Origin: Phoronis australis
Taxonomy: Eukaryota; Animalia; Phoronida
Direction of reading: 5' to 3'
DNA: 64,000 bases
Assembly: GCA_002633005.1 (NCBI GenBank)
Contig: NMRA01000254.1
Span: forward strand, 305,021 to 369,020
The notes beneath the pieces are model-generated. The model was not told where the DNA came from, did not search any database, and saw only the letters and a program-made list of their open reading frames with translations. The position numbers were made by a program, and so were the translations under genes. Shown here piece by piece: positions 10,175 through 52,228 of this stretch (positions within the stretch are counted from its first letter, which is position 1; every line of letters starts with the position of its first letter).

Positions 10175-10203
10175 TTTATCACTGTATGGAACGTTAATTT
10201 CAG

Positions 10204-18497: not shown

Positions 18498-18522
18498 ATG
18501 GTGTTTCACGCTTTGTATACTT
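18498..18522 (+). CDS. Candidate first coding exon of mosaic receptor (MVFHALYT)
   Basis: ATG...t|GTAAGG phase-1 donor; joined to 26847 gives the signal-peptide-like MVFHALYTLLFGFSFCIWTKHVDG. Confidence 0.45.
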
Positions 18523-18902
18523 GTAAGGTCAATTGTTTGTTATGGATTTCTACACCTTAAGCGGGTATTTTAATCGAGATTTCTATACTTCAGGTTGTAT
18601 TTTTTGTGACAACCACGTGAACAGAACAGAAAACAATTTTTTGATAATAGGTGGAACATCGCAAAATTCTTTGAAAACTTTTGAATACCGAAACCAATCA
18701 AGTCAGTGCTGTACGCGTGAGAACGACAATCTTCTGCACCATGGACTGTATTTTAGGCTGAAATGAACTGCACTCAGCTCAAAGCTTCACTCTGCCGACG
18801 GATGGCAAACACTGGCATTTGTTTACTTTCATAAACCAATCAGGCGTCTTTGCCGATTGACCCACGCATAACACTTGCGGAGTTAAATCGTTACTTATGG
18901 AA

Positions 18903-21487
18903 TAATTACTCTGCACGTGCAAGCGCAGAGTACTGTTGTTCCTGGGTTTTCTTCAATTTTATTCTTATTCTTCTTATTCTTCTTATTCTTCTTATTCTTC
19001 TTCTTCCGACCAACTTTGAGGCTTAATAACTCCAAATTGGATGCAGGTACGGTCTTTAAATTCAGCATATGACTTTTGACAGTATATAAATTTTGATTGG
19101 TTATATAATCATATTCCATATTGCACCGGAAGAGGTCGTATGGTGCAAAGGTCATATAATTTTCAAAATGCTACTCCTCCTTCAGTTTTAAAGCTATCTT
19201 TTTCAAATTCGGTGCACAGGTATAAGTCAACATGACAATTTAAAAAATTTCTTTTCTAAGAAATCGAGTCATCCAATCAGGTGAAATAGGCCAAAGGTCA
19301 TTAGGTGCAAACTAAAATTTTGAGCTAGACACTTCAAATTGACAGGTCTGATTGCCACAGGTAAATCAAATCGGAATCCAAAGTTTCAGGTCATTTAGTG
19401 CAAACATGGGGTCATTAGGTGCATTTTACTTCTGAAAATTTGACCTTTTCAATCAGCAAGTATTCTGATGTGTCAACCGTTAGACAACTGTGATTCTCAG
19501 CGTTAAACACATTTTCCATGGGCTTTGCAATAATTCTCCTGAAGATGCTTAAAATGCACCGGATAAGGTTAATTAGTGCAAAGGTCATGTAACGTTCAAA
19601 ATGTTATATCTCTTACGTTTTTCAAGGAATTCTTTTCAATTTCAGCACACTGGTGTAAGTCAACATGCCAATTAAATACACTACTTTACTTCGCAATATG
19701 CCTAACCAATCAGAAAAAATAGGTCAAAGGTTATTGAGTGCAAACTAAAATTTTGAGCTAGGGACTTCAGAATTACGTATCTGTTTACTAAGTGCGATTG
19801 AGTATGATTTCTAAATTTTCAGGTCATTTGGTGCACCAATGGGGTCATTAGGTTTTTTTCTTCGTAAGATATCGTAATGTATTTCAAGCGAAGCACATGA
19901 TATTACCAGCAGCTTTTCTTGCGCCCTGATTGCAGTGCAATCAAAGAACACAAGTCGTCATTTACCTATTGTGTTGTTTATTGCTTATTTGACGTGCATT
20001 TCTTTAATCTTAATTTACTTTTAAATCAAATTAGTAAATTCATTTTTTTTAAATCATTTCATTTCTAAATACACTAATATTTACAAACAATAAGATCTTT
20101 GCAAATGAAACACAGGCACGCACACACGCTCACACACATATCTAAATTACAGAAATTCACGGTTGGTCTAAAATAAATAGGCATTGATGGTTTCCCAGAA
20201 GGCAGTTTTGCGGGGTTGTATATTCCTTACTTTACAGTAATTATACAAGAAACATTGAAATTGTGAATATTTAGGAATAATCTGGCTTCTAGAACATTTA
20301 TGGATGAAATACTGGCAAATAGTTAATATGGTATTGATATCTTCAAAATTACATCCAAAATATGCTGTCAGAATAGCATTTCTATCCAAGACTAAATCGT
20401 GTTGTGCAGTTACGTAAATTAAAAGTTTCTGAATTTCACACCACAAAGTTTTCACAGAACCACATTCCACAAACATATGGTTAAAAGTCTCAACAGTTCC
20501 ACAAGATGGACACTTGTCATCACTGACTAAGTTCATCTTTTTCAAAATAAGTTTTGTAAACAGTTTTCTATGAATATAGAAGTACTTAAAGGTTTTAACA
20601 TAAGGAGGTAACAAGAGTTTGTGTGGAAGAACATAAATTTGTTTAATTCGTTGTCTAGAGTAAATGTCAGTTAAGCTGTACTCTATATCAGGAGGAAAAA
20701 CAATTTTGGAAAGCAAAATATTTCTAGAAAACAAATTAGTAATTTGGCTTGACTGGGGATGTATGCATTTTGAAATTGAAAGATCAGCTTTCAACTTAAT
20801 CGCACGTCTCAAAGCAGCATAATGAATCCAATTTGAAAGCTTGTATCTATTTTTCAAAACCTCCCAAGACAGAAATTTATTAACAAAGTTCAAAAGATCC
20901 TTCACAAAAGTAATACCAGCATCAAAGAAACTATTAAAGAATACAGACCTCCTATTAATCAATATGTTTTTATTATTCCAAACTACTTGGTTTACAATTG
21001 TTATGTCCTTATGTAACTGAGCACCAATTTCTTCCCAAGCAATCAAGATGTCAAGATAGAAGGTATCAATATTTGCAAGAGACAGCAATTTACAATCATA
21101 ATTTGATTTAAAAACCAAAAAACCTCCATATGTTTTAAAAATATACCAAGGAAACACTTTGGGGACATTAGGTGCATTTTTCTTCTGAAAGTTTGACCAC
21201 TTCATTCATCTTGTATTCTGAAGTGCTTAAAGTAAAACATGTGTGATTATTAGCATTAACCACACTTTTAATCGAGTTAACAATTACTCGCTCATCGGGG
21301 CTCATAATGCACCGGAAAAGGTCAATTAGTGGAAAGGTCATCAAAAAATTAATATGTAATTTCTCTTAAGATTTTAAAGAATTCCTTTTCATATTGGTAA
21401 ACGGGTTGCTGTCAGTAACTTCCCATAATAATTCCAGTAATACGCAAGCGCAGAGTCCGTTATTGTCACGCCGTGACCAAAATCTTT
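18903..21487 (+). mobile_element. Helentron-associated non-autonomous element (HINE/DINE-1-like)
   Basis: 5' palindrome tactctgc...gcagagta, (TTCTTATTC)n at ~18961-19005, ~433-bp tandem units starting 19122, 19555 and 21308, 3' gcaagcgcagagt followed by the GTCACG-C-CGTGAC hairpin. Confidence 0.7.
19854..21159 (-). mobile_element. 5'-truncated L1/Tx1 retrotransposon (ORF2 C-terminus plus 3' UTR)
   Basis: Open frame 20168-~21160 with VWNNKNILINRRSVF, GITFVKDLL and zf-RVT CPSCGTVETFNHMFVEC; short poly-T at 19853; near-duplicated tgggg[t/a]cattaggt flanks. Confidence 0.88.
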
Positions 21488-22680
21488 CAACTTATATCTT
21501 GCAATTCAACATTCAAACCTCACCGGCCATCAGTTCAATGACCGCCATTTTATTAATAGTGCTGTTTTTCGTTAAAAATCGATAGTGTTCCACTTGGTTA
21601 TCTCGAACAAAAACACGAACAATTTAAATGAACCTCAGAGTCAGACCGAGGATGCGCAACCTACAGTTTTTTTGTAACATAGCACGTGCTAACAACTTGC
21701 AAATCGCCTGGTCCTCGTGGATCTTATCTTATGGTTTTTACCGTCTTATATATGACATCTCATCGTTCAAACATACCATAATGAAACTTTCTGGAAATGT
21801 ACGGTACGTAATTGTTACTAAGGATGAATAGCAACAGTCATTTTCGACTCCTTTTTACCTCATTTTGCACTTCTATGTACGCTCTGTTTCACTGGAAAAA
21901 CTCACTCGATGTAACAAAACATATTTTGCTGTTATTTCGAATAGTGTCACCTAAATGAAAATTGGCAAAGAGACTAAATGTTTACAAGCGATATAGGACT
22001 ACTAATTGGGCTAACAAAAATGTGAACCCATGCAACTTAACTTTTCCTGAAGCACGCATTTTTAAGTCGTGATTTCTTGACGATTTGTATTGAAATTTAG
22101 GGATTTTCAGTACTGTTTAATGTAGAGCTCCACTTTAAATTTGTATCTTTTTCCAGAACAGAAACTTGCCAGTCGTCTGCTTCTTCTGCCACTTCAATTT
22201 GTTTTTAACCGTGTTCAAAATACGAGATTTTGCGCACGCCCGATCCTGTAAACAAGGTGGCACGCACGCCGTTCCAGCTTTTTCCGTCTTAGGCGGAAGG
22301 GAAATCATTGTAACGTTGGATACTTGTTCATTCAACGAAATTCATGAGGGTATCGATCGTGGCTACGCAGCGTAACTTGTAGGGTTGGTGCAGTATATTT
22401 AGTAAACAGCTTTGCACCAAGGCTAGCTGGCTGGCTACCTGGCTTTCACAACATGTATTAATTAACAGTATCAATCATACATCAATAACTTGGAGCGCTA
22501 CAATGACAGGCGTACATTTGAAGAAGCATGTCCGACTCGGATAGTTGGTCAAAAGGTTGCTACTATATATTTCCCAGAATGATTATCACAAAACGTTTTC
22601 CTTGACAACATACATACACTGTAGGTTCAATATCTTGGAGCGCATTTGAAATGTCAGTGTGACAGTAATGACGTGACAAT

Positions 22681-26279: not shown

Positions 26280-26633
26280 ATTTGCAAGAGGTCGACCACT
26301 TTTTCACAGAGCTTGCACCGGGATCATTCATTTAGTATCCGTAGTGTTGGTTAACACTCGACACAACTATGCCCTGTTCCGGAAGTGATGTTTAGAGGGT
26401 TTGAATTTCCAGCCATTTTGTTTTCACATAGTGGATGTGAATAATGATATGCAAAACTTAATGCCCAAATAATCCCTCATTAATAGCGTAATGGAATGGA
26501 TTTTGCATCAAGCGCTGTGTCGCCATTCATTCCATACTTTAGAGATATCTGCCTTTTTCTGTCGCGTCCCCATAGAGTTCAGTGTAAAAATCGACTTATT
26601 TACCTCGTATTCCACGCTCTCCTTCTCATAATA

Positions 26634-26782
26634 CAGTGGCGGACTTAGGGGGCGGGGCAAGGGGGCGCCTAAAATTCTCCCATATATCATTTGGCAGTTC
26701 GGGGGTACGAATGTCTGAAGGCAAAATCCTGGCTAATACTCTGCCCAGCCCCTTCTAACTCCAGATCCTGGATCCGTCCCTG
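26634..26782. mobile_element. Short GC-rich MITE
   Basis: cagtggcggact...ggatccgtccctg TIRs; internal sequence shared with ~58620-58733. Confidence 0.6.
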
Positions 26783-26846
26783 TAATCCGTATGGCTTGCC
26801 CAGATGACATCGTGCACTGTACCCCAAAATTAACCTGTTGTTTCAG

Positions 26847-26906
26847 TGTTGTTCGGATTTTCTTTTTGTATTTGGACAAAACACGTCGATGGATGGTCTC
26901 CCTATG
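26847..26906 (+). CDS. Mosaic receptor exon: signal-peptide second half
   Basis: tgtttcAG...g|GTAAGT, phase 1/1, 60 nt; LFGFSFCIWTKHVDG-WSPY with V-x-G cleavage-like site; runs in frame into VDLAYGRPT. Confidence 0.65.
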
Positions 26907-27127
26907 GTAAGTATTCACTTAGCAGACACAGTGCAATATACATACGTGTATGTAGGAAAGTATTCTATGGATCATTGCCAAGGATTTTCAATGCAAAACG
27001 TGAAATTAATGCAGTTTACATGCTAAGAATTGTACAACAACACTTGGCTTACTTCAAAATCTAACTGCTTCCTGGTGGTTTGTAATTGGCCCAATTATTT
27101 TGCACACCCAGCAGATGCCAACATTAA

Positions 27128-28142
27128 AGGCGAAGGCAACCTTTTTCCATGTCATTTTGAGCTAAAATAAGGTCGGTTATCCTAGACATATTTTCTACTT
27201 AATTACAGCTTTTCGTAATTTTGTTAATTACTCGTCCGCTACTCCGGAAGTGACGTTTTAGGAGGCAAGCATTTCGCGCCAATTTCTTTTCATACAGTCT
27301 GACTGTGAGAGCTGCCGAGTCAGTCATTGTTCTACCTCGGTTGTGTTAAGTTCCGTTGTCGTTTGCTTTCATTTACTAGTGAGTCAACATGCCACACTGT
27401 TGCTGCGTACCAGGATGTACTAATTATCGGCTCACGCGCGCTTTGGGAGTACCTTTGCATCGCTTTCCGATGGATGACACACTTCGCCGTACTTGGCTCG
27501 TTCGTGTGAAGAACGTAGCGTTACCCGTCCACGCAACGTNACAAGCATTCCATTGAGGTAGGCATAACAACGCACACAGCGCATTTGCACCAAGATGTGT
27601 CACCACGTCTGTCCTAAGTAGCCGCCTCGTTTCTCTCAACAGATGCCTGTGCCTGTGCGTATTCTGCCTCGTTATACTCGGGCTCAAACATGTACCCACC
27701 CACTGAATGTCCGTGAAAAAATTCCTCGTCACCACTGCTGTGAACAAGGTCTCCGTTACTTACACTACTGTCACTGTAATACGGGTCACCGACTCCAGCC
27801 ATTTTCAACTTACAACACACTAAACAATCCCTAAATCCAACGTACATGTAGTTGAGTTCTCTACTAACCTATCTTGCCGCAGAATACTCGCCGATGGGAA
27901 GTGATGGCGACAATTGTTGAAAAACAGCACAAAACAAAAGTAGAATAAAACAGATTCGCACGGTGAAGTGAACGCAAAACCAAGTGGCGGGAAACGCTTG
28001 CCTCCTAAAACGTCACTTCCGGAGTAGCGGACGAGTAATTTATAAAAATATGAAAAGCTGTAATTAAGTGGAAAATATGTCTAGGATAACCAACCAACCT
28101 TATTTTAGCTCAAAATGACATGGAAAAAGGTTGCCTTCGCCT
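27128..28142 (+). mobile_element. Kolobok family 1, copy 2
   Basis: TTAA TSD, ~150-bp TIRs, THAP start on +, convergent KolX-like start on - (GYMFEPEY...WCKC...MPTSMEC); single n at 27540. Confidence 0.9.
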
Positions 28143-29142
28143 TTAAATGAACGTTTTAGTTTGTAAATTCACGTTTCTTGTCCAATTTTCAAAATTCAAA
28201 AGCCTAGTCACGTGTACTTTTCACGAACTATTCAAATATGCTATTTACAAACTTTCAACGACGAAATTTAAAAATACTGTTGTCGCCCCAGTGTGCTTGT
28301 GATGGGTCTGTCTATCTCAAAAGCAATAACATCAGTAGCCTGATTCGATGTATTTGTCAACAACAGCATGGCGCCTTTGATCAATGCCGGCAGATTCCGG
28401 GGTACGCAAAGCGGTCCAGTTGCCCAATATCGTCCTGTTAGGGTGTCAAAGTAGATTCTATTCATGGGCAAGACCCGGGGTGCGTTCCGTAAATGCGAGA
28501 GTTTCAAGAAAACGCAAGAACACGCGGGAATTCGCGAGATCTAGCCACGTATTACACGTGAAACTCGTGATTAAACTAGATTCCCCATAAAATGCTCAAA
28601 AATGTTTCTGGGCTATATCTTGAGCTGGTTTTTCAATCACAAAAATATGTTACCTGTTAAACACTTTCAACCAGGCGTGAGAAGGATCTAATAAGCAATA
28701 ACCCGGTTTCACATTTAGTACTTGCGCTGTTCAAATCCATGAACGTTTTCTAGAATTTCATGATGGCGGCAGGCTTTCGGCATAACTTTCTCATTTGTTC
28801 AGTAACGCAAGTGCTCCTGTGTCCTGAGGTACTTGTGGCAAGCATCCCAGACAAAGGCCACGCCACAAAAAACACGCGAATTAACATTTTGTTTTCCCAC
28901 ATTTCAACATTCCGAGTTGGCTGTCCAATCACTTTGTTTCAGAGGCAGCCATATTGATTCGATTTTAATGCAACATACTGATACTTGCGAAACCCTAGCA
29001 AGACCTTACCTCCCACTTATTTGCGTGATAGTTGCGTGTTTTTAAATTTTCAATAAACTGGCACGACGGAACCCATGGCGAACTTTTTCCCATTGGAAGC
29101 GCTTGCACGAGATTAGTGTGGTTTGTATCGTTTGCTTCGAAG

Positions 29143-29418
29143 TCGACCTTGCCTATGGCCGCCCTACGCTGCAATCAGGAGAAACAGGTACCAACGGAAG
29201 GAAACCGCAAGGATGGGGAGGATCGCAACTGGCTGTGGACGGCAACGATAGTCCAGACTTCTCAGAAAACAGCTGCACCCATACACCAAGTGTTTCCCAT
29301 CCATTCTGGATAGTCGATGTTGGCGGGGGAGAACATGAGCAGCACCAAGAAGGAGAGGAACCTCGTTCTCGTTACTACCCGATAAAATATGTCATGATAA
29401 CAAACAGGCTTGCGGCTG
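29143..29418 (+). CDS. Mosaic receptor exon: F-type lectin domain, N-half
   Basis: DLAYGRPTLQS...LAVDGN...SCTHT...PFWIVDVG...VMITNR; AG/GTAGGT, phase 1/1. Confidence 0.88.
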
Positions 29419-31403: not shown

Positions 31404-31610
31404 GTGAAAGACTGAAAAACTTCAAGGTAATCGTCTTTGAAGATAGCGCTCGCCATCTTTGCTATCACTTCCGCGGCGAATTTCCGGCAGGTGGCACGAG
31501 GTTACTGAGGTGCGCCGACGACATCCGCGGTCACTCCGTGCAGATCATGATTGCAGGGGATTCTAAAATACTAAGTCTGTGTCAAGTGGCTGTGTTCCAG
31601 GAATACCCAG
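31404..31610 (+). CDS. Mosaic receptor exon: F-type lectin domain, C-half
   Basis: GERLKNFKVIV...LCYHF...GGTRLLRCADDIRGHSVQI...LSLCQVAVF; AG/GTAGGG, phase 1/1; absent from the ORF track. Confidence 0.88.
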
Positions 31611-32009
31611 GTAGGGAAATATGAGCAAAAGTGCACTGCGTATATCCTGCCCAGATTATTAAACGTACTGTATGTAAAGGCAATCTACATGTACGATTCA
31701 TTATCTGGGCTGAGCAGCACATCGTGAAGACTATTATCTCCTTCACTCGCTAGGCGTCGTTCACGTACAGTGGCATTAGCTTTTAGCGAACAGGAGCAGC
31801 TGAATTTTGTGGGATCCTGAGCCTTTTTATAGTTAAGGGAAGCCATAACTCGACACTGGTTATCTAAAATCATCTTTAAGAATATTTGATAAGATTTCTG
31901 GGGTTGGATAGAACTGACAGTAGGTTGTTAATTGGTTTTTGTGACTTTATAGACCGAGCATGACCTCAAGCATTCAGGAACTGTCGGTTATTTCTTTCAC
32001 TTTAGAAGT

Positions 32010-32908: not shown

Positions 32909-33079
32909 GTTGTTGGGAAGCGGGTAAAGAAGAACCAAGCAAACCGGTGCACGTTGACTTCACGGGCAGAGACTGTCTCGATCATTGCAAACTGCCACAT
33001 CTTGGCGAACATCCTGCATGTCGCGTTGGAATCGATGGTCGAACGCAAATGAACAAGTGCACAATACCGCCGTGTATAA
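32909..33079 (+). CDS. Mosaic receptor exon: shortened kringle-like domain
   Basis: ctcccAG...a|GTACGT, phase 1/1; CWEAG...TGRDCLDHCKLP...HPAC...KCTIPPC with six Cys. Confidence 0.75.
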
Positions 33080-33878: not shown

Positions 33879-34064
33879 ACGATTTTGAACCAGTATTAGA
33901 ATGGAGCGAGTGGACACGCTGCTCGGAAACGTGTGGCAAGGATAGCTACAGGTTGAAGCTGCTGAAAAGATGCCATCGACCAAGGTATAGCGGAACCCCT
34001 TGTCCGTCAAAGGCCGCAGTCGGCAACATAACAGAAAAATGTGTTGTTCGTAAATGCACACTTA
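33879..34064 (+). CDS. Mosaic receptor exon: thrombospondin type-1 domain
   Basis: ttcacAG...a|GTAAGT, phase 1/1; WSEWTRCSETCG...RC..PRYSGTPC...EKC...C; absent from the ORF track. Confidence 0.9.
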
Positions 34065-34574: not shown

Positions 34575-34952
34575 GACATGGCGTGAAACTAAAACTGAAG
34601 ACGGTTAAGTTGTTCGCCAGAGAAAACTTCCCCGTCACTTTGCAGTGCAATTACACTGTGGACGAAAGTTTTGTCGTGACTGGTGTGAGATGGTGGAAAA
34701 GCACACAAGATGCTTCTAGTATGACGAAATTCTTCGAGAAAACATGGAGTGGCGGAAGCCCACACGCCACCGGCAGCATACACACCGGAGATGGTGAATT
34801 TCTAGGAAGTGCGCAGCTTCCAAACGGAGTTGCTGGATACAGGATTTTCAGTGTAAGAAAGGAGGACGAAGGAAGATACAAATGCGCAGTTGAAGCAACA
34901 TCTGGAAAAGATGACGGAGAGGTGTCAGCTGAAATAGACTTGAGAGTCAGTA
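34575..34952 (+). CDS. Mosaic receptor exon: Ig domain A1 (V-like)
   Basis: VTLQCNY...VRWWK...DEGRYKCAV; AG/GTAAGT, phase 1/1. Confidence 0.92.
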
Positions 34953-36501: not shown

Positions 36502-36846
36502 GTCCACTTGTGATCAGTCTCCCTCGAGAGACGTTTGCTTACGACAACACTACAGTCAAAGTTGAGTGTCGCGTCTCCAGCATTGCTAAGGAATTTCCCA
36601 TTACTCGGGTGGAATGGTTCTTCAACGGTCACAAAACCGTATCATACAATGTACGGCACGACAGAGAATCACCGGATGTAGGAGGTCGACTGAAATGGAG
36701 ATTCTCAAAAACCAGCCTGACCAAAGTTGAAAGCAAGTTATTTCTTGACCAAGTAAACCAACAAGACCTGCTCTCGAACATCACCTGTGCTGCTAAAGCA
36801 CAGGGCGACTGGTTCGCCAATGCGGTCTCGTTCCTTTATGTAGGTG
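36502..36846 (+). CDS. Mosaic receptor exon: Ig domain B1
   Basis: VECRV...VEWFFNG...ITCAAKAQGDW...LYVG; AG/GTAAGT, phase 1/1. Confidence 0.9.
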
Positions 36847-37169: not shown

Positions 37170-37559
37170 GCCTTTCAAATTCAGTAACCGTTCAGCCTTC
37201 TCGCGTCTACACCAAGCCAGGAGCTAGTGTTATTTTGCCGTGTCGGTATAGCGTAGAATCTGGCTTCATGGTAAGATCCTTGGAGTGGAGGGAACACCCT
37301 GGTGATAGTGCTCTTTTCAAACAAGAGTGGATTCGTGACATGGCGATTGCCTGGTGGCGTGATAACCTGCATTTTAGCGACAGTGCTTACCACACTGACT
37401 TTGGAGAGTTCTTGGGAAACAAAAAGAAGCCGCTAGGAAGGGCTAACCTCAGGCTATTTAAAGTGAGGAAAGGTGGCAAATATTCATGCATCATGAAGGT
37501 TCGCTCGTCAACAGGGGAAGACAAAGCATACGATGATGACATTGACGTTATTTTGGGCA
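37170..37559 (+). CDS. Mosaic receptor exon: Ig domain A2 (V-like)
   Basis: VILPCRY...LEWR...GEFLG...GKYSCIM; AG/GTGAGT, phase 1/1. Confidence 0.92.
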
Positions 37560-37575
37560 GTGAGTAGTTAATTAA

Positions 37576-40232: not shown

Positions 40233-40601
40233 ATCCTGTTTTCGGCACAATCTCTCAAAGAGCATTTGCTCCCAGAGGTTCAACTGCCAAAATTTCTTGT
40301 CAAGTTGCAAGCCACAGCCCGAGGAACTTTCTATGGAAAATTGGGTGGTTTAAGAACGAACAACTGATTGGCTTTTACCAATTTGACGACCACGGCCCTT
40401 CATGGAATCTCAAACAAGGACAGGTGATAGACAATCGTATTCACATTGAGCCCGGACGCCATACTTGTACGCTTCACAAATGCGGCATCTCGCTTCTTCT
40501 GGAGGACGTAGGGTACGCTGACGAGAAGTCAAAGTTCACGTGTTATGCGAGTGCTCAAGGAAACTGGGTGCTAGAATTGTACTCTCGAATTCACGTGGGT
40601 G
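40233..40601 (+). CDS. Mosaic receptor exon: Ig domain B2
   Basis: ISCQV...IGWFKN...FTCYASAQGNW...IHVG; AG/GTATGG, phase 1/1. Confidence 0.92.
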
Positions 40602-42344
40602 GTATGGTATATTTTGAACTACTACTTGCATGCTCATCGATGTCAGTTTGACCTTTAAGCTTGAAGTTTATCGTTCATTTGATTTTGTGCTGTGTTGTGG
40701 GCTTTACTTTGCTCAGTGCAATACCCAAAATGCCCGTGGTATCAAGATACTCAAGCATTAGAAAACCACAAGGGAGTGAGTGCACTACCCTCTAACATTG
40801 CGCCACCTTTACTGAAAATTGGTCCTGTGGAAACATGATGAACGACGCAAGGAATTCCGTGTGCGGGCATCATTGCGCATGCCCTGGTCGGAAATATACA
40901 TTGTACCGCTCACATCACCACCACTTGCACACGCCTTTATGCATTGTTCTTGTTTGGGCTTAAGCCACTGGATCGGAGCTCCCTTTATTTTGTCATGACT
41001 TAATGTTACGTACGACGTCGGTTTCATTGCCTTAACCATTCCACAATGCTAATGCTTTCGTAGCACTGTGAAAGAGTGTATGAGTGCACTTGCTTGGCTT
41101 CGCCGGTTCCAACGACTTCTATTGCAATCAGTTGACCATGCGTAACCGGGAAAGAAGTACAGCCAAGGGCAGTCATTGAGTTCAGGATTGGTGTTTGATG
41201 GAAGCACTGAACACTGAGTTAGCTGTGGGTTTTGCCGGGTAGTGCAAACATCAGTGGATTTGCCGCCTCTGTTCCACTCTGCCAAAGGCTGTGTGAACCA
41301 TCTGACGGGACAGCTTTGGGTAATTTCATTGTTAAATCGCCACGTGTGACAACTCAAACTTTATTCTGACTCCCATTTTTGTCCCTATTGCTCGCAATGA
41401 AAATGACAACAGGCTAAGAGAAAAGTAGTTAAAAAGTAAAACTGCACTTTTTGGCCCCAAACCACAACTCTCCTGTTAACACTGGATTCTGAAAGCAAGT
41501 TTAATACAGATTCCACGAATGTGGTGCAAAAGTGTTGTCACCCAATTAGATTATTTTGCAGTTATCTGAGGTCCACCTAAAATCGCAGTATATGTTTTCT
41601 GAAAGAAAAGCGACCAGAACGGTCGATTTTAATGAAATCTCTTTTAAATGAAAAATTCACCAGTTACCTCAAAACGCTGTTCGAAAATTTCAATTAGTCT
41701 TTTCGCTTGGTTTCTATGACATGTCAACTCGCAAAATGCAAGGTACCTTTGTAAAAAATAGCAGTCGTATTCGTCTTTGTTACATTACGCAAATACCAGA
41801 ATTAAATTTGGAAAGTCTCAGCAAAATCCACAGAGTCGTTTTCGAGAACTCGTTTTCCTAAGTTCAAATTAAATCAATTTGCAAAGCCGAGGAAAAAATA
41901 AATCGTGAAAGGTTATACTTTCAAGGTCCTCGGTTAATTATTCGGTGAAAATTTGCTTTCGGTCGATATAACCTGTACACCCCTTAGCTACGGTCATTAT
42001 TTCAACATTGAACAACAACATGTCATTTGCATTTGCAGTGCATAATTCACTTAATTAACAAAAAAACGTTTAATTTAATCCAAGTCGAGTGCATCGATTC
42101 CAAATAGGTCACGGGCGTAGCCAACATATTAAGTGGGTCAAGCTGGTGCATTGTGGTCCGCATAAAAATAGACACACCACGCGCTGTTAAACTCCTAACC
42201 CAAGTACAAAATGGATACAGAAATCAGGTCGGTGGCTAAAGCACGTCGTGAGCATGAGAACTTACAGCGGTTGTTTGCTTCCAACGTGGTTCTGATCAGT
42301 CTTTTTGCCAAGCTACACGGTATTTATTTCGTACCGTAATCGTT

Positions 42345-42510
42345 CGGGTTAACGCCCTGGGCGGTTAAATTGGCGAACCCAAAAAATCGGGGGAGGGCGG
42401 TTAACCTAGCAGTGGGCGGTTAAATCGAAAATCCACCTAAAGTAGGGGATGGGCGGTTAACCGAACATGGGCGCTTATTACGACAGTCAACCGCCCTGGG
42501 CGGTTAATCT
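42345..42510. repeat. Cluster of GGGCGGTTAA motifs
   Basis: Five copies at irregular spacing within ~160 bp. Confidence 0.75.
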
Positions 42511-43399
42511 TACCTGGCGATCTAAATCCCGACACGACACTAATACTCGGAACGCGTAGCCCTTTTCAAAGAGCTTCATCGTCACGTCGCCAAATGACTG
42601 TAAAAACGTCATAACAGCGGATGATCCCAACAAAGGTTCTCTTGCCCTCAGATTAGTCATTCACTATTAAATTAACAAAATTGCTGAGTAATAGCCCCGT
42701 GCCGTCCTGCGGTGCGCAGACGACAAGTGACTACGAAGCCTCCACTTGAATTAAAACTGTTTCAAGATGTGACCCTGCTTAAGTGCGCGCGTGCAAGCTT
42801 CACGTGTTGCAGAGGTCAGACATCAAATTTATGGTCTCGTACTAGATGTAGCTGTCAAGTTCTGAGTCAGAGAGCAGTTTTAAAATTGGTTGTAATAAAA
42901 GTTTGAAAAACTTAACTCTGCTGTTTTTTTGTGTTTGGGATGTTGTAGTCGACACTCCGTGACTCAATGACATTTTCTGCGTATGGTTTTGCGGCTAGCT
43001 GTCTTATCTCGACAGACCGGCATTGCTCTCTTGCCGTTACGCCAAACATGTCATGCAAAGAAGTAAGACAAGGATCGGGGGTGGTCGAGCCAGTCGTCGA
43101 TCATGAATAAAATTTCAAGCAAATGCATAAATATGTTACAAAATGTCAGAAAACAGCAATGTTTCAATTCATTATTCTAAACGATCACCTTACCAAACTT
43201 CGTGGTGGAAAAACATTTATTTTCATGCAAGATGTCCAGATTATCATATTCATATCACTTGTAATATCGCACTGCGGCACTGTTCGGTCCCGCTGTTATC
43301 GCGCAATGTCTCAGTCGGCTGACAATCGTGACTTGGAAATGCCGTCAAGTAATATAACGGCCTCTTTCAATATGCATCTCGTTTTTTATGGCTAAAGAT

Positions 43400-43686
43400 N
43401 NNNNNNNNNNNNNNNNNNNNNNNNNNNNNNNNNNNNNNNNNNNNNNNNNNNNNNNNNNNNNNNNNNNNNNNNNNNNNNNNNNNNNNNNNNNNNNNNNNNN
43501 NNNNNNNNNNNNNNNNNNNNNNNNNNNNNNNNNNNNNNNNNNNNNNNNNNNNNNNNNNNNNNNNNNNNNNNNNNNNNNNNNNNNNNNNNNNNNNNNNNNN
43601 NNNNNNNNNNNNNNNNNNNNNNNNNNNNNNNNNNNNNNNNNNNNNNNNNNNNNNNNNNNNNNNNNNNNNNNNNNNNNNNNNNNNNN
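43400..43686. other. Assembly gap
   Basis: Run of N. Confidence 1.
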
Positions 43687-43919
43687 ACAATTGGTGAAAA
43701 ATAGCACAAAACAAAAGTAGAATAGAACAGATTCGCACAGTAAGCTCAACGCAAAACCAAGTGGCGGGAAGCGCTTGCCTCCTAAAACGTCACTTCCGGA
43801 AAAGCGGACGAGTAATTAATAAAATTACGAAAAGCTGTAATTAAGTGAAAAATATGTCTAGGATAACCAACCAACCTTATTTTAGCTCAAAATGACATGG
43901 AAAAAGGTTGCCTTCGCCT
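43687..43919 (+). mobile_element. Kolobok family 1, copy 4 (right end only)
   Basis: Near-identical to ~27910-28142; followed by TTAA. Confidence 0.9.
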
Positions 43920-46307
43920 TTAAAACAGGGTTCAGTGCCCTTTTAGAAATTCGAAGATGGCGTACGAAACTGTGGACTCTTGTGTAGACGGCATGTTCGA
44001 CAAAGGATCAGTGAAAACAGTTCCTTCTGCAGACCTGGGTCAGAATCTTGTTTTTGTACTCTGAATCGAAGTTGTCACGACAACTGTATGCTCGTGCTCG
44101 AGTGTGTTATGGTTTATGCAGATGAGAGCATTCTCTTAATCTGCACTTGAAGACTACAAGAAACTTGATATAATCTCCAGGAAGAATTCATAACTTCAAG
44201 TAAAAGCACGAGATTTCAAGTAAAAAACTCGAGATTTTGCGTAAAATGTAAGATTTTGAGTCCGCACTGGACCTTATTCAGGTGCTAAGAGACAACGTAC
44301 AGTATCTGTCACTAATATGACACGATTTGGACCCACAGATAGGAATACAAACGCAGTCACGTCATATGTTCAAAAAGTGCAGGCCTTTACTTTTCTGATC
44401 CCAGTAACCATGGGGGCAATTTATCAATTGATTTTTTAACAAAATTATGTGTTTGGATTAATCTGTATTCTCGACAACGGGTGGCACCAGTATTATACTC
44501 CCGAGGAGTTGAAAAGGATTAGTATTGACCAGGTCTATGAACAGCGAATAATTTTCTAAGTGTTTAGCAACTTGTCGAGCTGCTTACGTCTAGCGTAATA
44601 ATTAGTAGTTTTTATTTTAAATTTGGTTTGATTTGGCGTAGTCCAAAACGAGAAAACGATGTCATACAGAACAAGCGATTACCTTTAATGCTGAGGTCAA
44701 AATAAATGTAAACTACATGTAGGATTAGAAATTAATCCATGGTGTACTGGAAAACAGAATGACAGACATTTATCTCGAGTTCGCACTAAACTAGAGAGGA
44801 CGGATGTCAAACCGAATTCCCTTTAATTTAGGAAGATTAGACCGGTCTTTGTCTGAGTTCTTTCCAATATTCCTTCCACTGGTGGCGATTACTTTTCCAA
44901 AAGTTTTAAAGCTCATATTGTCTGATTTGTCTGTCTTTGTGTCTAATAGTGACGTCATCAGTGTTTCCTCTTCAGCGACTAATTGCCGTCACAACATTGA
45001 GTACATTAGACATGTCTAGGCTGCTTATTTCACTAAAACTCGTGAAAGTCCGATATGCATGTGATACATGTATTTTGTTCAGCTTCAATAAATTTCCTCA
45101 GTTGGTTGTTCTAGTTCGTGCAACTTTCCCCTTCCGGTAAGTCCGGGATTTCCCTTACGAACAAAATCTAATTAGTGCGAGTTTTGCCTTAGTATCAATT
45201 GCTAACGCCACGTTCATTGATTTGCTTTCACTGGACTAGCGCATAGTGAACAACCTGCGAGTAGCAGATAAAGCTATTCTGTATCAAACCATGCACCTGG
45301 TAAGAGTTGCAATGCGAGAAATTTTGTAAAGAAAAAATGTAGTAAAAATCGGAAGCCGTTCACCATGCATGTACGTGGTACTCCACTCTTAACTGCCTGA
45401 TGGCTTGGAACACTGAAGCCCAACGTTGTATGTATGTACATGTACATGTAGCAAGAACAGTGAGACTGCGATGTTGACCACGCAAAATTACGCGGGTGAA
45501 AGGCGAATGTCTCTCGATTAGGCCGGAGCTCATTAGCAGTAGCCAAAATGGCGGCGGCCATTGGTGTGATAAGTCTGCAATGTTAGAATGTTGATGTATG
45601 GAATAGAATTCACGAAATATGAAAACAATTTACTGTTTCTGATTAATAAGAAAAGTTCAAGTACACAATACCCCGACCAGAACTATGGCAAACAGCCCTG
45701 GTCCTCCCAGCATCTTCACCTTTCTTTTCCACTGAGCGAAAAAAGTTTTGTTTAAAAACATTTGAAAGTGTGTTGGAAGTAGGCCAATAACGCTTAACCA
45801 ATTTTTGCTGATGTGAGGTGTCCTAGGTATAACAGAACTCTCTGCAGAATTTCTACTCGCCGCTAGCCACATATATTAAGTTTGGAATACTAAGAAATAA
45901 GAAGGAACATTATTTTTTTCATCGACAACAATCTAAAAATCAATCACAGGCCATTTGTAACTTTCACTTGCAGTACGAACCACTGAACTGAATGCCCATA
46001 CAACCCAGCGAACACCAGTTCTTAATGAGATCGGACTAGGTAAAATCGAATATGACAAAAATTGGTGAGTGCCACCATATTATGGTACGCCTGTCGTTTG
46101 GAACAAACGAGCATTCTTGTAATTACATGATTGTTACCCTAAAGTAAGCGAGTCTTCAATATTAGTTGTGCTCAGATGTGTGCGAGCAGGTCTAAACAAG
46201 TCTAGGTTCCTCAAGTTGCACCAAATTAAGAAACTATGCGACATTTTCCAGCAGCTACCGCCTTGTTACATTAGACTACTAATGGCATTTCCGTTTGTTA
46301 CCTGCAG

Positions 46308-46709
46308 ACGAGAGCACCTCGGTTAAAGTTGAACCACGCGCCCTTTACACTAGAGTTGGACCGGGTGTTGACGTAAGCATAGCCTGTCGGTACACTGTTC
46401 TAACAGGTTATTACTTGGATCGTATAGAATGGACCCGTGGCGACTCTACAAAGATCTTCCAGCAGTATTGGAGGAATTTCTCGTCCTCCGTTGAATGGTT
46501 CGAGAGATTTCGCACCGAACCCAGACGGGCAAATGTCTCTAGCAAAGGAACGTTTCTTGGCAACACAGTTTACCCCAATAGAGTTGCTGGCCTCAAAATA
46601 CATAACTTCAACGAAGACGACGCTGGCGTTTACAGCTGTTTAGTTAAACTTGTCTCCAGCACTGGGCAAGCTGTTGAGATTAAAGATGAAAGCAATGTCA
46701 TGGTTAGAA
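46308..46709 (+). CDS. Mosaic receptor exon: Ig domain A3 (V-like)
   Basis: VSIACRY...IEWTR...GTFLG...DDAGVYSCLV; AG/GTAAGT, phase 1/1. Confidence 0.92.
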
Positions 46710-47585
46710 GTAAGTCGCGACTGTTTGAGAAGCATCGGACGTTTTGTTCGAACACAACCGACGGTGTTCAGTGATGTGGGTGTTAGAAAATCCAGGAAGT
46801 CAAAAAATTTTGTTTGACAACTTCTTTGCCAATACGTCTGGCAAAAAATGAGTGCAAATGATCAAAGAACACAATAAACAGTCTTACCTTTTTAAGAGAT
46901 AAGTCTGAATATTTGGGCTTTCTGGTTTTCAGCATCTTTTCACTGGGATCCCGGTGGCACCGGTAACTATCGGCTGGCAATGCACACAGGATTATTACGC
47001 TACCTCATTGTGCGGGGCTGGTGACCAATTAGCCTATTAGAGTACCGTGTTTGTCATTACGAGCATAAGTATTTTGCATGTTGAAATGTGGAACTGTCCT
47101 CTGTCACTGGCTCGAATCTGAGGATCATCAAGTGCAAACTTGGACTAGAAAACCATCTGTATAAAACATAATACACCCGAGCACAGAGTAATAAACACCT
47201 ACTCCATCTTAAGTTCGTACACTGTACATGTACAATAGCAAAAAATGTCAAAAGCAATTGCAAAATAGAATTCGAGTCTGGACCCTGTACCCAAACTTTT
47301 AATTCCTGACTTAGACTCAATACGTGACCGATCATATCGCACTATTCGCAACTTTACTCAAGCATACACCCATGATCTGGCTGTTTTAAGTCCTTCCAAA
47401 AATCGTACCCGTTAAAACAGATGTAAATCCGACCATGCCCTCGTTGGTAGACCTGTATGTACTGCTAAAAGGGTTGTCGTTTAGGAAAACAGACCTGTGA
47501 TATCATGCAGGCCAAAATATCCAACTAGGCCTTACAACTTTTTGGTGGTCGCATACATGTGTATACGTGACATTCTTTTTCAAAG

Positions 47586-47951
47586 GCCCAGTAACGGTGT
47601 CCATGCACTCGAAAACCCACGCGCAGAAGGGTCATACTGCAAATGCGCAATGCGTGGTGAAGAGTGACGGAAGAAATTCACACGGTCTTGTTCACGTCTT
47701 CTGGATTATCAACGGACACAGGGTGGCGTCTTACATTCCAGCCCGCAGCAAAGCGATGGAGCTGCTTGAAACCCGTGAGAAACACAGACTGGGGTCTGTA
47801 ATCAAGCAGATGCGGGGCGACATGAACAACATTGAAACAACTCTGATGGTGAGGAACGCCCAGTACGAAGACGAACAGTTGGAAATCGCGTGCTCTGCAC
47901 GAGCTTATTTGGACTGGGATGTCAAGGCCGCGACACAACTTCGTATTGATG
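47586..47951 (+). CDS. Mosaic receptor exon: Ig domain B3
   Basis: AQCVV...VFWIING...IACSARAYLDW...LRID; AG/GTATTT, phase 1/1. Confidence 0.9.
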
Positions 47952-48372
47952 GTATTTAAAATTGCTACTTCCTTATACATGTATAGAGGCTTAAGATATG
48001 TGATACCTTTCGTGTGTGGAAGAATCGAATAGTTGAGGACACCAGTAGTACTTTTGCAAAGTTCTAAAGAGTGATAGCCAAGGCCTTTTCCACAAACTGG
48101 CTACGCTTTCATTTGGAAAACCAACCTTTTCCCTGCGTTTTCAAAAGCTGTTTGTACTTTTGTTGAAGTACTAGCTATTTCTGAAAAATGTTTAAATATA
48201 GTTTCATTCTACAGGCCCAGAAGAGCCGTATGATTATTACCGTGTTTGCGCGTTCGACAAGTCGAGATCCGCCATAACAACGGCCACTGTTGAACACACC
48301 AGTGTAACGCCATGTAGAACTGGCACGGTGTAAAAGTTGTCTATGGTGTACAATTGTTAGCGTTCACTTTAG

Positions 48373-48594
48373 ATTGCACCGTCTTTGGATGTGAACACTC
48401 TGGGAAATGCAACAGGTACTCCAGCAGATGTGCGTGTACCCAGAACTTTCGTGGAAGAAATTGTGAACTTGACGTGGACGAATGCCGCCAAAAACCACCA
48501 CCTTGCAGTAAAATGTCTTCGTGTGTAAACGTCTTTGGCTCATACAAGTGCACGTGCAACGTGGGTTACTATGGAAATGGTCGCACATGCCAGG
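48373..48594 (+). CDS. Mosaic receptor exon: EGF plus calcium-binding EGF
   Basis: CEHSGKC...CAC...GRNCE then DVDEC...CVNVFGSYKCTC..GYYGNGRTC; AG/GTACGT, phase 1/1. Confidence 0.95.
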
Positions 48595-48743
48595 GTACGT
48601 CATATATGATGCTAAAGTCATCTTTTTCAATCTTTCTTCTTAGCCAGAACGATTATTCGCAATTTATGACCTCTCGAAGCCAGACTGTTAGCGTCGTTCT
48701 CCAAGTTGTCGGCTTTTACATTCTAGATTATAGCACCGAATAT

Positions 48744-48970
48744 TCTGCGCTCCAATTGGTCGCCAATGTGACCTCAGATCGTGTTTGGCGACATGGGAAA
48801 AATCTCAAGTCACCACGAAGTCCCGAGAATGGGGCACGATAGGACCTTTTTTAGTCTGTGATTTCTACGCCGGATAGTCAACGTCAGATTTCATTCATTT
48901 GGTGACCTGGGATTTTTGCCAGGTCGCCAAGTGCGACATGGCGCTTACATGTAGCTAACTTCGAGCGCTG
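48744..48970. mobile_element. Palindromic MITE (hAT-like ends)
   Basis: ctgcgctccaa / ttcgagcgctg ends; inner inverted ttggcgacatggg..aaatc.caagtcacca / tggtgacctgggattt..ccaggtcgccaa. Confidence 0.5.
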
Positions 48971-49915
48971 AAAGTGAATGCATTTTATCGAGAGAATCTT
49001 TCTATTTCAAATTTATTGAAGCAACGGTGAAATAATCTGAAAAATGATAAAAAGATGAACTCTCGTACCGATTTAATTTTAAGTTTCATTTATTAATAAA
49101 TGATGTTGCTTCTAAAATATGATTTACGAAAGCCTTATCAATCCTTAGAAGTGGTGGCTGCAAAAAGAAAAGGAATGGCTCCATAATGTTTTGAGCTTCT
49201 CGAAGTTTAGGTACTTCCTTGGGCCTAACAAATCAATTTGAACCTGCATGCATTATTCAAGACCGGATATTAAGGGTCAAATCCTGAAAATGTACGCTCC
49301 CAAGTTTAAATGTCGCCGGGATTACGCAGATCACGCTTGGTGCAAACCACAATCTTGTGAAGAGTTTGTGTCAACAGACGACACTGATAACATAACAGGC
49401 CGAATAGCAAAAAATGAAAAGTCAGCAATCTGCTGTTTATAGTGTAACCTGAAGGCGAAATATTGGTTGATGTTGTGAGTGAACGTTTCTAAATGTTGAA
49501 GTCTTAAAAATTTGGCCTGTGTTTTCACTGAGTTGAGAAACAGCTTTTTGTTTAGACCACATACATTATAAAACTGGTCCTTACTGATCTTAGAGCTTTT
49601 AAGTTCTAAAACTTAAAAGTCTCTTGGCCTGGAATGATTTGACAGTTGACTATTTGTTCAGACGAAACCCATAAAAATTCAATTCACCTCATCTAAAGAA
49701 AATACCAACTGTCATTTTTGTGCAGCCCAGAAATCCTCTCGTCAAAGAAAAGAGCGATTTCAGATCATTTTTATTACGACACAACGTACACTGGCATAAC
49801 CTAGAACTTGTTTTTAACACATTTTACGGGTTTAATGCCGCTTTAAACAAACTATTTAGGTAAAAGGACACATAAAACGCAATACACTCATTCCATCGTG
49901 TGGTGTTCATTCTAG

Positions 49916-50026
49916 CCAACCCCAGATGCAACACTCAACCTTGTAAGAACAATGGAGTGTGCTTTGACGATCCTCACGGCTTCAAGTGTCTGTGTTTGAA
50001 GGGGTTTACCGGAATTCGTTGCGAAA
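49916..50026 (+). CDS. Mosaic receptor exon: EGF domain
   Basis: ttctAG...a|GTAAGT; NPRCNTQPCKNNGVCFDDPHGFKCLCLKGFTGIRCE; phase 1/1; absent from the ORF track. Confidence 0.93.
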
Positions 50027-51323
50027 GTAAGTTGTATGTTCAGAAAACTATGCATATATAGGTACATTTTTGTTGTAAAATTCCGTTTGCACAAAGTGCA
50101 AGAGGTTGGCCCTTGTCACAGTGAAGCTGTATCATTGGATGAAGAGTTGCGCAACTTCAATGTCGCCAATTTCTTTTCTGAACCAGACACCAAACAAAAT
50201 ACATTTGGCCGTCATTTAAATTACATTGGCAAGTGACCAGTTCAGTATCGACTCGAAGATTAACTAAAGGCGATCGACGTTTATAATTATAATTTAAATT
50301 TCACACAAAGTCGAGTAAAGTTTTTGGTGGCGATGGGCAATGCGTAGGTTGTATGGAGGTACGGCAAGCAACTGCTCAGGCAAGAGAGCGTGTTCTTAAT
50401 TTCTTCGGCTTTGTTAGGAGATGCTTTTCTTCAAAATTTCACAAATGCGTACTGACGATTTCCGACTAGGGAAAAGCCCCACTGGGACCTCTTTCAAAAA
50501 CAAGGTTTTAAAAAGACTACATGATACTCTTTCTGGAAATCTTTGCATGTCCGGCACGTGTGGAAAATGTGAGCAAGATTTCAATATTTTCGCATATTTT
50601 GAACTTTAAAATGACCGCTAATATATTCCAACGTGATCAGTGATTGCTAGTCGACAGAAGCCGCGTCAGACTTTGCTTGGAGCAACCTACTGTAACTGTC
50701 CACCACATACACTGTACCTTAAAAACATGGCTGAACGAGGGCAGTGTGGACGGCATTATAATTTTCCGAAAGAACTTTTCCCTTTTTTCCGAAATACCTG
50801 TCGAATATCTTTTTTACCCAAATTCACTTCGGTAACACGACGTTTCTCCAGTGTTGGCCCAGTCGTATAGTGTGCGGTGACGACCCCTGTTGTCTTCCTT
50901 CTGTTTAGGTCGTGACGTCTACAATGCCAAATAGTGCACGAAGTAATATACATCTATTCCTCCTAGACCTACATGTTTAAAGGAGATTGCTAGCTTAGTA
51001 CATGTAGGTATTATCCAACTCACGACAATCAAAAGATTATAACACGACTGTTGAAACTCCCAAGTCTGAAATTATGCTAAATGCTATGTAAGTACATGTA
51101 GACATACATGTACAGTATACAGTACGTTTCCAAAAGGTATAACCTGTGAACAGAACTTCCCGTGGTCTGCATCAGTTTGCACTGGATGCAGTGATCATTC
51201 AGCACGACCTCTCCACACCATTGTAGAAATTGTGTAGTTTCTCTTTGTTTTAATTTGAAGTTCTTCCAGGAAATAACAGAGTGTCACAAAGCTTAGTAGT
51301 ACTCAATTGTTTTGAATTTCCAG

Positions 51324-51438
51324 ACAGGATCATCAAAAGACACGAAGGTCTTCCTGGTACCGAGTTTATTTATATTCTCCTGGCCGTGCTTGGAGTAATG
51401 TTTGCACTGGTGTTGCTCATATGCTTGTGGCGAAAAAG
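51324..51438 (+). CDS. Mosaic receptor exon: transmembrane helix
   Basis: FIYILLAVLGVMFALVLLICLW followed by the RKR stop-transfer; phase 1 acceptor, phase 2 donor. Confidence 0.9.
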
Positions 51439-52029
51439 GTCGGTCTTTTCGTTTGTATTTTTCTGTTGAAATGTCAAAAATGTTTGTAAATCAGCAGAAG
51501 AGACATTTGCAACACTGCAAGGGGGTTGCGACGATTAGAGACATCTCCCAAGATTTGTTGATTTGTGAGACGAATAGCTAATTTCGTGGAATTACTAGTT
51601 GGTGCGTTAAACAAAGAAGCTGCATAGCAAATCCACGTAATTTTGATGAACTAGACTTTTTGCTCAATATCCAGTCAAGGATAAAAATGCCATACCACAA
51701 CTGCAGGATGTGAAATCGGTTGCCACCCGGTCACTACCCAGAAGAAATAAGTGACGTTTTGCGGCGCTGAATTTTATTCTTGATGGCGGCTACCGGGTGG
51801 TTAGAGTTAGGGAGGAAAGTGAACGTCAGCCATACTCTCTTCATCAGAGACACACCTGAGATTTCCCACACCGATCCGGCACCGAACTTGTCAGATAAAT
51901 TTGAATTGCCTGTTTTCTCTTGTTATACTGTGACAAGAAGGAATGAGCAAAGCTCACTAGATGAAACTGCAAATTCGTCAATGAAAATTCTTTTGTGTTT
52001 AACTGAATACATCTACGCATTTTCTTCAG

Positions 52030-52228
52030 AATGCGCTCAGACGGCCTTACGCACGAGGAAGCAGAGCCATGGAACGACGAACTGCCTGGACCTCCGATAG
52101 TGGCGCTGGTGGGAAACACGTGTCCAGGACTGCACAAAAGCAGACAGTCTCATAGACATAGCAAGCGAAAACGGTGGAGTAACGATCAAAATATAAATAA
52201 TACTGAGTTAATAATACAGTATCAATAA
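52030..52228 (+). CDS. Mosaic receptor terminal exon: cytoplasmic tail
   Basis: ttttcttcAG phase 2 matches the TM exon donor; MRSDGLTHEE...LIIQYQ*; AATAAA overlaps the stop. Confidence 0.72.

What the first reader, a model, noticed from the sequence alone, without database searches (positions are those of the whole stretch)
18498..52228. Mosaic receptor: F-lectin / kringle-like / TSP1 / 6 Ig / 3 EGF / TM
Seen: up to 17 candidate exons with canonical AG/GT sites and compatible phases splice without stops into ~1275 aa. Several exons (lectin C-half, TSP1, third EGF) are missing from the ORF track. Known: F-type lectins bind fucose in invertebrate immunity and gamete recognition (e.g. oyster bindin); Ig plus lectin proteins (FREP/CREP/GREP, VCBP) are mostly secreted. 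I know of no described protein with this domain order. Inference: a lineage-specific, exon-shuffled glycan or cell recognition receptor (immunity, allorecognition or fertilisation).
Basis: partly seen in the sequence, partly recalled or inferred. Interest (0 to 1): 0.85.

Follow-up and report, generated by a model that had tools for sequence, protein, structure and literature searches.

The report
Lectin-headed six-Ig membrane receptor
This animal gene is transcribed and spliced into a message coding for a membrane protein with an altered fucose-lectin domain at its tip and three repeated pairs of immunoglobulin-like domains as a stalk, and it likely works as a cell-adhesion or recognition tether, though its ligand and role are untested.

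Summary
The gene is real. RNA reads span 14 of 14 introns between a signal-peptide-like exon (26847-26906) and the stop exon (52228), 10-48 reads each. I find 16 exons and 1,273 aa, not 17; the first (18498) is untested. Order: F-type-lectin-like, kringle-like, TSP1, six Ig, three EGF, TM, 68-aa tail. Refinements: the six Ig domains are one odd/even pair repeated three times; the lectin keeps the cation motif but fails the fucose motif; 'kringle' rests on cysteine spacing only; the tail has no ITIM/ITAM. One of three raw-read RNA runs shows no spliced reads, so expression looks restricted. No relative was found, but an exon of the neighbouring opsin found none either, so this partly reflects weak searches or a poorly sampled lineage. 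Nine paper searches listed no such architecture; the main F-lectin survey was not readable. The scan had not noted it elsewhere. Best reading: an exon-shuffled adhesion/recognition tether working like Drosophila furrowed. Allorecognition has no positive support. An apparently new architecture of a common kind, function unshown.

The parts
18498..18522 (+). Candidate first coding exon (start of signal peptide, 8 codons + 1 base); inferred only
   Evidence: Gives a plausible signal peptide with the next exon, but is one of 21 candidates and not covered by a read lay
26847..26906 (+). Exon for the hydrophobic/C-terminal half of a predicted signal peptide
   Evidence: Joint 26906>29143, 17 reads, longest short side 60 = exon length; only AG between the in-frame stop at 26831 and the donor
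29143..29418 (+). F-type-lectin-like domain, N-half (cation motif, His, 15-residue insertion, first Arg)
   Evidence: Best PDB hit FBP32 3cqo E 1.2e-10, also eel lectin 1k12; joints
31404..31610 (+). F-type-lectin-like domain, C-half
   Evidence: FBP32 3cqo E 8.9e-6; joints
32909..33079 (+). Six-cysteine module, kringle-like by spacing (gaps 20,3,10,12,4), with the long C2-C3 loop missing
   Evidence: no Pfam, PDB or fold match; likeness to kringles is from recalled consensus
33879..34064 (+). TSP1 repeat; holds a minor internal donor at 33984 that shifts the frame
   Evidence: PF00090 24.3 bits, cut-off 21.6; minor joint 5 reads vs 38, stop about residue 292
34575..34952 (+). Ig1 (odd type, V-like)
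   Evidence: V-set E 3e-5; z 15-23 to Ig3/Ig5
36502..36846 (+). Ig2 (even type)
   Evidence: V-set_CD47 25.2 bits, cut-off 21; z 15-19 to Ig4/Ig6
37170..37559 (+). Ig3 (odd type)
   Evidence: z 23-28 to Ig1/Ig5; weak Ig_3 hit
40233..40601 (+). Ig4 (even type, two extra Cys)
   Evidence: z 15 to Ig2, 6.8 to Ig6; weak Ig hits
46308..46709 (+). Ig5 (odd type), carries an RGD
   Evidence: V-set 27.6 bits, cut-off 26; RGD at residue 846
47586..47951 (+). Ig6 (even type), carries an RGD
   Evidence: No Pfam hit; z 19 to Ig2; model is a beta-sandwich tied between V-set Ig and jelly-roll matches
48373..48594 (+). EGF1 and calcium-binding EGF2
   Evidence: EGF_CA 41.7 bits, EGF two stretches
49916..50026 (+). 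EGF3
   Evidence: PF00008 37.5 bits, cut-off 21.5
51324..51438 (+). Short stalk, single transmembrane helix, basic stop-transfer
   Evidence: Only 19-residue window with mean hydropathy above 1.6 (peak 3.07) in the RNA-linked frame
52030..52228 (+). Cytoplasmic tail and stop; one Tyr, no ITIM/YxxL, a basic KRKR stretch
   Evidence: joint 42 reads; AATAAA overlaps the stop at 52224

Best explanation
The locus is one expressed, 15-to-16-exon animal gene for a single-pass membrane protein whose stalk of six Ig-like and three EGF domains is predicted to hold a lectin-like/six-cysteine/TSP1 head away from the cell, where it likely acts as an adhesion or recognition tether in a restricted set of cells. 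Shown: exon chain, splicing, reading frame, domain order, threefold repeat of an odd/even Ig pair, altered fucose motif, a tail without catalytic domain or ITIM/ITAM. Inferred: it was built by shuffling and tandem duplication of phase 1-1 exons; the rod would be about 35-40 nm long (textbook domain sizes, recalled); the head binds a glycan other than plain fucose, or a protein, on a facing cell or matrix; the basic tail anchors it or hands the signal to a partner rather than signalling itself. It would work like Drosophila furrowed (a membrane mosaic with a degenerate F-type domain and a genetically shown adhesion role) without being a member of that family.
For: 14 of 14 joints in RNA; open 1,273-aa frame and phases; Pfam TSP1, V-set, EGF above curated cut-offs; lectin halves match FBP32; odd-odd z 15-28 and even-even z 6.8-19 against odd-even z -0.7 to 4.4; one TM helix, no tyrosine motif; odd Ig profile best matches B7-H3, contactin, DCC, VCBP3, even profile Sidestep VI, neurofascin, mostly adhesion/recognition proteins; exon bins empty or near-empty in X3, which does cover the repeats; two RGD motifs; furrowed precedent in PMC12221842 (passages).
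Against: No ligand, cell type or phenotype is known. Two of the three fucose-contacting basic residues (His, first Arg) are in place and a third Arg sits one position early, so fucose binding may survive and fit an immune role. The Ig matches are generic. RGD can arise by chance, and the Ig5 one sits where Ig3 has PGD. The first exon, hence the signal peptide, is inferred. The Ig6 model gave no Ig match in Foldseek.
Confidence: 0.55

Rival explanations
1. Innate-immune pattern receptor: the lectin head binds microbial glycans and the protein captures or helps engulf microbes, with the minor frameshifted splice form as a secreted lectin.
For: F-type lectins act in innate immunity (PMC5712786, PMC12221842); cation motif, four structural Cys, His and Arg kept; a minor donor at 33984 would give a ~292-aa product without TM; VCBP3 among odd-Ig matches.
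Against: Fucose motif not met; single lectin domain; no ITAM/ITIM; no paralogue in the window; the short form is 5 reads against 38 and could be a decay target.
Confidence: 0.2
2. Allorecognition or gamete-recognition determinant, like Hydractinia Alr, Botryllus fuhc-tm or oyster bindin, with allele-specific binding.
For: V-like tandem Ig plus TM as in Alr and fuhc-tm; no detectable relatives, which fits fast evolution; near-absent in one of three raw-read runs; 4 of the 6 exonic differences listed change the amino acid.
Against: Depth on Ig2 is nearly the same at 90% and 96% read identity (21.5/14.6 vs 20.5/14.6), so no strongly diverged allele in two samples; no gene cluster in the window; no tyrosine motifs. 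The difference table showed 40 of 151 rows, so 2-3% allelic divergence of the fuhc-tm kind is neither shown nor excluded.
Confidence: 0.12
3. A diverged member of a family already annotated in other invertebrate genomes (F-lectin/kringle/TSP1/Ig/EGF mosaics of amphioxus, hemichordates or spiralians).
For: Reviews report large expansion of F-type domain architectures in hemichordates and cephalochordates; my searches used single exons or three-sequence profiles and missed even opsin relatives; the main survey (Bishnoi 2015) and its supplements were not held.
Against: HMMER over 1.84 billion representatives with the even-Ig profile gave 14 hits, none with lectin, kringle, TSP1 or EGF families; 10 of 14 looked up were generic Ig proteins or unnamed.
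Confidence: 0.1
4. The exons belong to two or more separate genes or to a chance chain.
For: Only neighbouring joints are seen; minor alternative donors exist (33984, 41319); an assembly gap lies in the Ig4-Ig5 intron.
Against: All 14 joints seen in both runs at similar read counts, one strand, one frame, same presence/absence pattern; reads skip the gap directly.
Confidence: 0.03

Closest known systems
Drosophila furrowed / CG9095 (F-type domain, C-type lectin domain, CCP repeats, TM); from passages of PMC5712786 and PMC12221842
   Same: Type I membrane mosaic with an N-terminal F-type domain that departs from the fucose motif; adhesion role shown genetically for furrowed
   Different: No C-type lectin or CCP domain here; stalk is six Ig plus three EGF; six-Cys and TSP1 modules added
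F-type lectins MsaFBP32 (PDB 3cqo) and eel AAA (1k12)
   Same: Both halves of the domain match; cation motif and four structural Cys kept
   Different: Membrane-anchored single domain; His-to-Arg spacing 41; Asp replaced by Ala; vicinal Cys pair absent; last basic residue one place early
Amphioxus VCBP3 (PDB 1xt5, 2fbo) and mollusc FREPs
   Same: V-type Ig domains joined to a glycan-binding domain; VCBP3 matches the odd-Ig profile at E 1e-6
   Different: Lectin is N-terminal and F-type, the Ig pair is repeated three times, and there is a TM and tail (VCBP/FREP order and secretion partly recalled)
Botryllus fuhc-sec/fuhc-tm and FcoR; Hydractinia Alr1/Alr2 (passages of PMC12065747, PMC8282982)
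   Same: Tandem Ig-like domains, EGF in fuhc-sec, single TM
   Different: No lectin, six-Cys or TSP1 module in those as described; no ITIM/hemITAM here; extreme polymorphism not shown here

Membership tests
F-type lectin (FTL) family | Sequence similarity to solved F-type domains over both halves | tested here: met
   3cqo E 1.2e-10 and 8.9e-6; five further fucolectin-type chains for the N-half
F-type lectin (FTL) family | Cation motif h2DGx | tested here: met
   AVDGN at residue 59; motif as defined in PMC5712786
F-type lectin (FTL) family | Fucose motif H-x24/26-R-x-D-x4-R/K | tested here: not met
   His75 to Arg117 spacing 41, Ala at +2, basic residues at +6 and +8, none at +7; the exon joint inside the motif is fixed by 24 reads
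F-type lectin (FTL) family | F-type jelly-roll fold | not tested
   The domain lies on two exons and was not folded whole
F-type lectin (FTL) family | Binds fucose | not testable with these tools
   Needs a binding assay
Kringle domain | Six cysteines in kringle order, Pfam/structure match | tested here: inconclusive
   Six Cys, gaps 20,3,10,12,4; no Pfam hit at E<=1, no PDB sequence hit, single-sequence model pLDDT 50 with no fold match; kringle consensus is recalled
Thrombospondin type 1 repeat | PF00090 above cut-off, WxxW, CSxTCG, six Cys | tested here: met
Immunoglobulin superfamily | Cys-Trp-Cys core with 70-85 residue spacing in each of six domains | tested here: met
   6 of 6: spacing 73-84, Trp 15-17 after the first Cys
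Immunoglobulin superfamily | Ig profile above curated cut-off or clear Ig fold for each domain | tested here: inconclusive
   2 of 6 above cut-off (Ig2, Ig5), Ig1 just below, Ig3/Ig4 weak, Ig6 none; the rest linked by internal homology; Ig6 model: about half of the top 50 VIA rows are V-type Ig at Z 6-7.5, top row a non-Ig sandwich at Z 8.2, Foldseek no match at E<=0.001
EGF-like domains | PF00008/PF07645 above cut-off | tested here: met
   EGF_CA 41.7, EGF 28.5 (two stretches) and 37.5 bits
furrowed-type (FTLD-CTLD-CCP-TM) | C-type lectin domain and CCP repeats | tested here: not met
   No such Pfam family on any of the 14 exons scanned, and RNA joints leave no room for further exons
Invertebrate allorecognition proteins (Alr, fuhc, FcoR) | High allelic polymorphism | tested here: inconclusive
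   Two samples only; six exonic differences among 40 of 151 rows shown; no depth loss on Ig2 between 90% and 96% identity
Invertebrate allorecognition proteins (Alr, fuhc, FcoR) | ITIM/ITAM-type tyrosine motifs in the tail (FcoR, some Alr) | tested here: not met
   One Tyr next to the C-terminus, no ITIM or YxxL/I
Invertebrate allorecognition proteins (Alr, fuhc, FcoR) | Genotype predicts fusion/rejection | not testable with these tools
   Needs crosses or aggregation assays
VCBP / FREP-type Ig-lectins | N-terminal Ig, C-terminal glycan-binding domain, no TM (recalled) | tested here: not met
   Lectin is N-terminal and a TM exon is spliced on

The most novel reading that the evidence does not exclude
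The founding member of an undescribed, fast-evolving self/non-self or gamete-recognition receptor family: a re-purposed F-type domain and a loop-deleted mini-kringle read a non-fucose ligand, three tandem V-like Ig pairs give allele- or species-specific binding, and a frameshift splice releases a soluble head as decoy.
Probability: 0.13. Interest if true: 0.75.

Novelty: new variant of a known kind. Interest (0 to 1): 0.4.

Why it matters
It is an RNA-verified example of a membrane-anchored F-type-lectin/IgSF mosaic with an order I could not find described, and it offers three testable oddities: an F-type site that has lost its Asp and cysteine pair, a possible loop-deleted kringle, and a triplicated Ig pair. 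If it proved polymorphic and allele-specific it would add an independent invertebrate recognition system. As it stands, one-off mosaics of these modules are expected in marine invertebrate genomes and no function is shown.

Tried and rejected
Homologue searches were blank or generic: word-indexed searches with the odd-Ig alignment (6,423 candidates, 0 passed), the lectin N-half (0) and an opsin exon as control (0); HMMER with the even-Ig profile (14 hits, generic); metagenome scans (191 stretches, 0; 168, 0); NCBIfam (1 weak hit in 12). These are weak evidence of absence. No whole genome is held, so paralogues were checked only inside the window. The protein atlas gave no result. No RNA holder was listed by the index; runs were added by species label. 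Folding the six-Cys exon alone gave pLDDT 50 and no fold match. The Ig5+Ig6 complex job gave no verdict (score 0.01). Earlier-finding look-ups by sequence and words showed nothing. Rejected: a signal exon at 22779 (its donor is phase 0, the next exon needs phase 1); extra exons at 28293, 28945 or 43947 (RNA joints skip them); a split into separate genes. Nine paper searches listed no paper whose title or abstract start describes this architecture; I saw listings only for most. Bishnoi 2015 and Mahajan 2018 were not held.
Full report
Observation. The window is animal-type DNA of about 40% G+C with little CpG depletion (o/e 0.95); no genome is held. Reading the + strand gave 14 domain exons from 29143 to 52228 with AG/GT ends that splice into an open frame. 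Two read lays tested the model. One search (36400-56399, four runs, 90% identity) listed the five joints from Ig5 to the tail at 41-48 reads each in X1+X2; 50 further joints were not shown. One search (26420-46419, X1 and X2, 96%) listed the eight joints from the lectin N-half to Ig5 at 10-38 reads and a new upstream joint 26906>29143 at 17 reads; 10 rows were not shown. So 14 of 14 introns between 26847 and the stop are seen, all on one strand, all with the predicted skip length. The upstream exon is 60 bases, starts in phase 1 and has no in-frame ATG, so a further exon is needed. The refutation 'transcripts split the region' is not met at the level of neighbouring joints; no long read was available.

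Expression. X3 shows no read on the five 3' joints and zero depth on the Ig2, Ig5, EGF3, TM and tail bins (under 1 on the Ig3, Ig6 and EGF1-2 bins) while covering the repeats as X1 and X2 do. X4 (contigs, 32 million letters) shows no joint either, which is weak. Expression therefore looks tissue-, sex- or stage-restricted; which is unknown. Two minor donors appear: 33984 inside the TSP1 exon (5 reads against 38), which shifts the frame and stops at about residue 292, and 41319 in the Ig4-Ig5 intron (8 reads against 24).

Domains. Lectin: both halves match striped-bass FBP32 best (E 1.2e-10, 8.9e-6). The review PMC5712786 (passages and parts 2 and 4 of 9) defines a cation motif h2DGx and a fucose motif H-x24-R-x-D-x4-R/K (His52, Arg79, Arg86 in eel AAA). 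Here the cation motif and four structural Cys are present, but His and Arg are 41 apart (an insertion of about 15 residues), Ala replaces Asp, the vicinal Cys pair is absent and the next basic residues are at +6 and +8. The joint inside this motif is fixed by 24 reads, so it is not a modelling error. The six-Cys module has gaps 20,3,10,12,4; by recalled consensus this reads as a kringle that lost the long loop between Cys2 and Cys3, but Pfam, PDB sequence search, a pLDDT-50 model and two fold searches gave nothing. TSP1 and the EGFs pass Pfam cut-offs. All six Ig exons have the Cys-Trp-Cys core; only Ig2 and Ig5 pass a cut-off. Pairwise scores split them cleanly into odd (z 15-28) and even (z 6.8-19) sets with odd-even z of -0.7 to 4.4: one two-exon unit triplicated long ago (about 25-33% identity). 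The odd profile matches B7-H3, contactin, DCC and VCBP3, the even profile Sidestep VI and neurofascin. Against this, the Ig6 model (pLDDT 74 best, 50-58 for the other four) had no Foldseek match at E<=0.001 and its top rows were non-Ig sandwiches; in the wide search about half of 50 rows were V-type Ig domains, tied with jelly-rolls. There is one TM helix, eight N-glycosylation sequons, RGD in Ig5 and Ig6, and a 68-residue tail with a basic stretch and no tyrosine motif.

Relatives. None found, and no paralogue in the window. The control matters: an exon of the upstream opsin also found nothing, so single-exon searches are weak here or the lineage is poorly sampled. Earlier scan notes call the genome a marine invertebrate and list another Ig/TSP1 surface receptor in it (unchecked); none describes this gene.

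Polymorphism. Six exonic differences were among the 40 of 151 rows shown, four non-synonymous. Ig2 depth hardly changed between 90% and 96% thresholds, so neither sample carries a strongly diverged allele there. fuhc-tm alleles differ by only 10-15 of about 535 residues (PMC12065747, passages), a level my data neither show nor exclude; Alr2 has 183 sequences in one population (PMC8282982, passages).

Mechanism. The best reading (0.55) is an adhesion or recognition tether: a rod of Ig and EGF domains presenting a three-module head, with a tail that cannot signal by itself. The closest working analogue is Drosophila furrowed, whose F-type domain is degenerate and whose adhesion role was shown genetically (PMC12221842, passages); it is not a member of that family, lacking the C-type lectin and CCP domains. 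Rivals: immune pattern receptor (0.2), allorecognition or gamete receptor (0.12), diverged member of an annotated family (0.1), split genes (0.03). Ligand, cell type and function are all inferred.

Novelty. Nine paper searches (listings, plus passages of five papers including PMC5877582) showed no such architecture, and neither F-lectin review contains the word kringle. But the same review says mosaic F-type proteins are many and expanded in hemichordates and cephalochordates, and the survey that lists them, with its supplements, was not held. Verdict: observation confirmed, interpretation partly supported, a new variant of a known kind, interest 0.4.

Noticed in passing
window 8864-9241 and 10198-10590, + strand (further exon near 6002-6110): A rhodopsin-family GPCR gene (7tm_1 E 1e-11 and 3e-4) with Lys in helix 7 before an NPxxY motif, so likely an opsin (diagnostic recalled); one exon found no relative in a word-indexed search.
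   Followed up: partly
window 14746-16631, 27124-28147, 37572-39044, 43687-43925, 62709-63843: Five or more copies of a repeat with inverted ends and a THAP-like zinc-finger start, 68-97% alike; three lie in introns of this gene and draw reads on both strands. TTAA at the ends suggests a Kolobok-type element (recalled).
   Followed up: partly
window 29467-30171 and 61337-62285: Near-perfect two-copy repeats (352 and 475 bases, 98%) each split by a single N: likely contig-overlap assembly artefacts; no exon affected.
   Followed up: partly
window 33984 and 41319: Minor alternative donors: one inside the TSP1 exon (frameshift, possible short secreted form or decay target), one intronic spliced to Ig5.
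   Followed up: partly
window 52224-52229, 52593, 53741: AATAAA overlaps the stop codon; two more lie downstream among repeat-derived reads, so the 3' end is unresolved.
   Followed up: no
window 32000-32230: 28-base minisatellite, 8 copies, in the intron between lectin and six-Cys exons.
   Followed up: no
window 42332-42473: Short inverted-repeat element giving many opposite-strand joints in all runs, a high-copy hairpin repeat.
   Followed up: no
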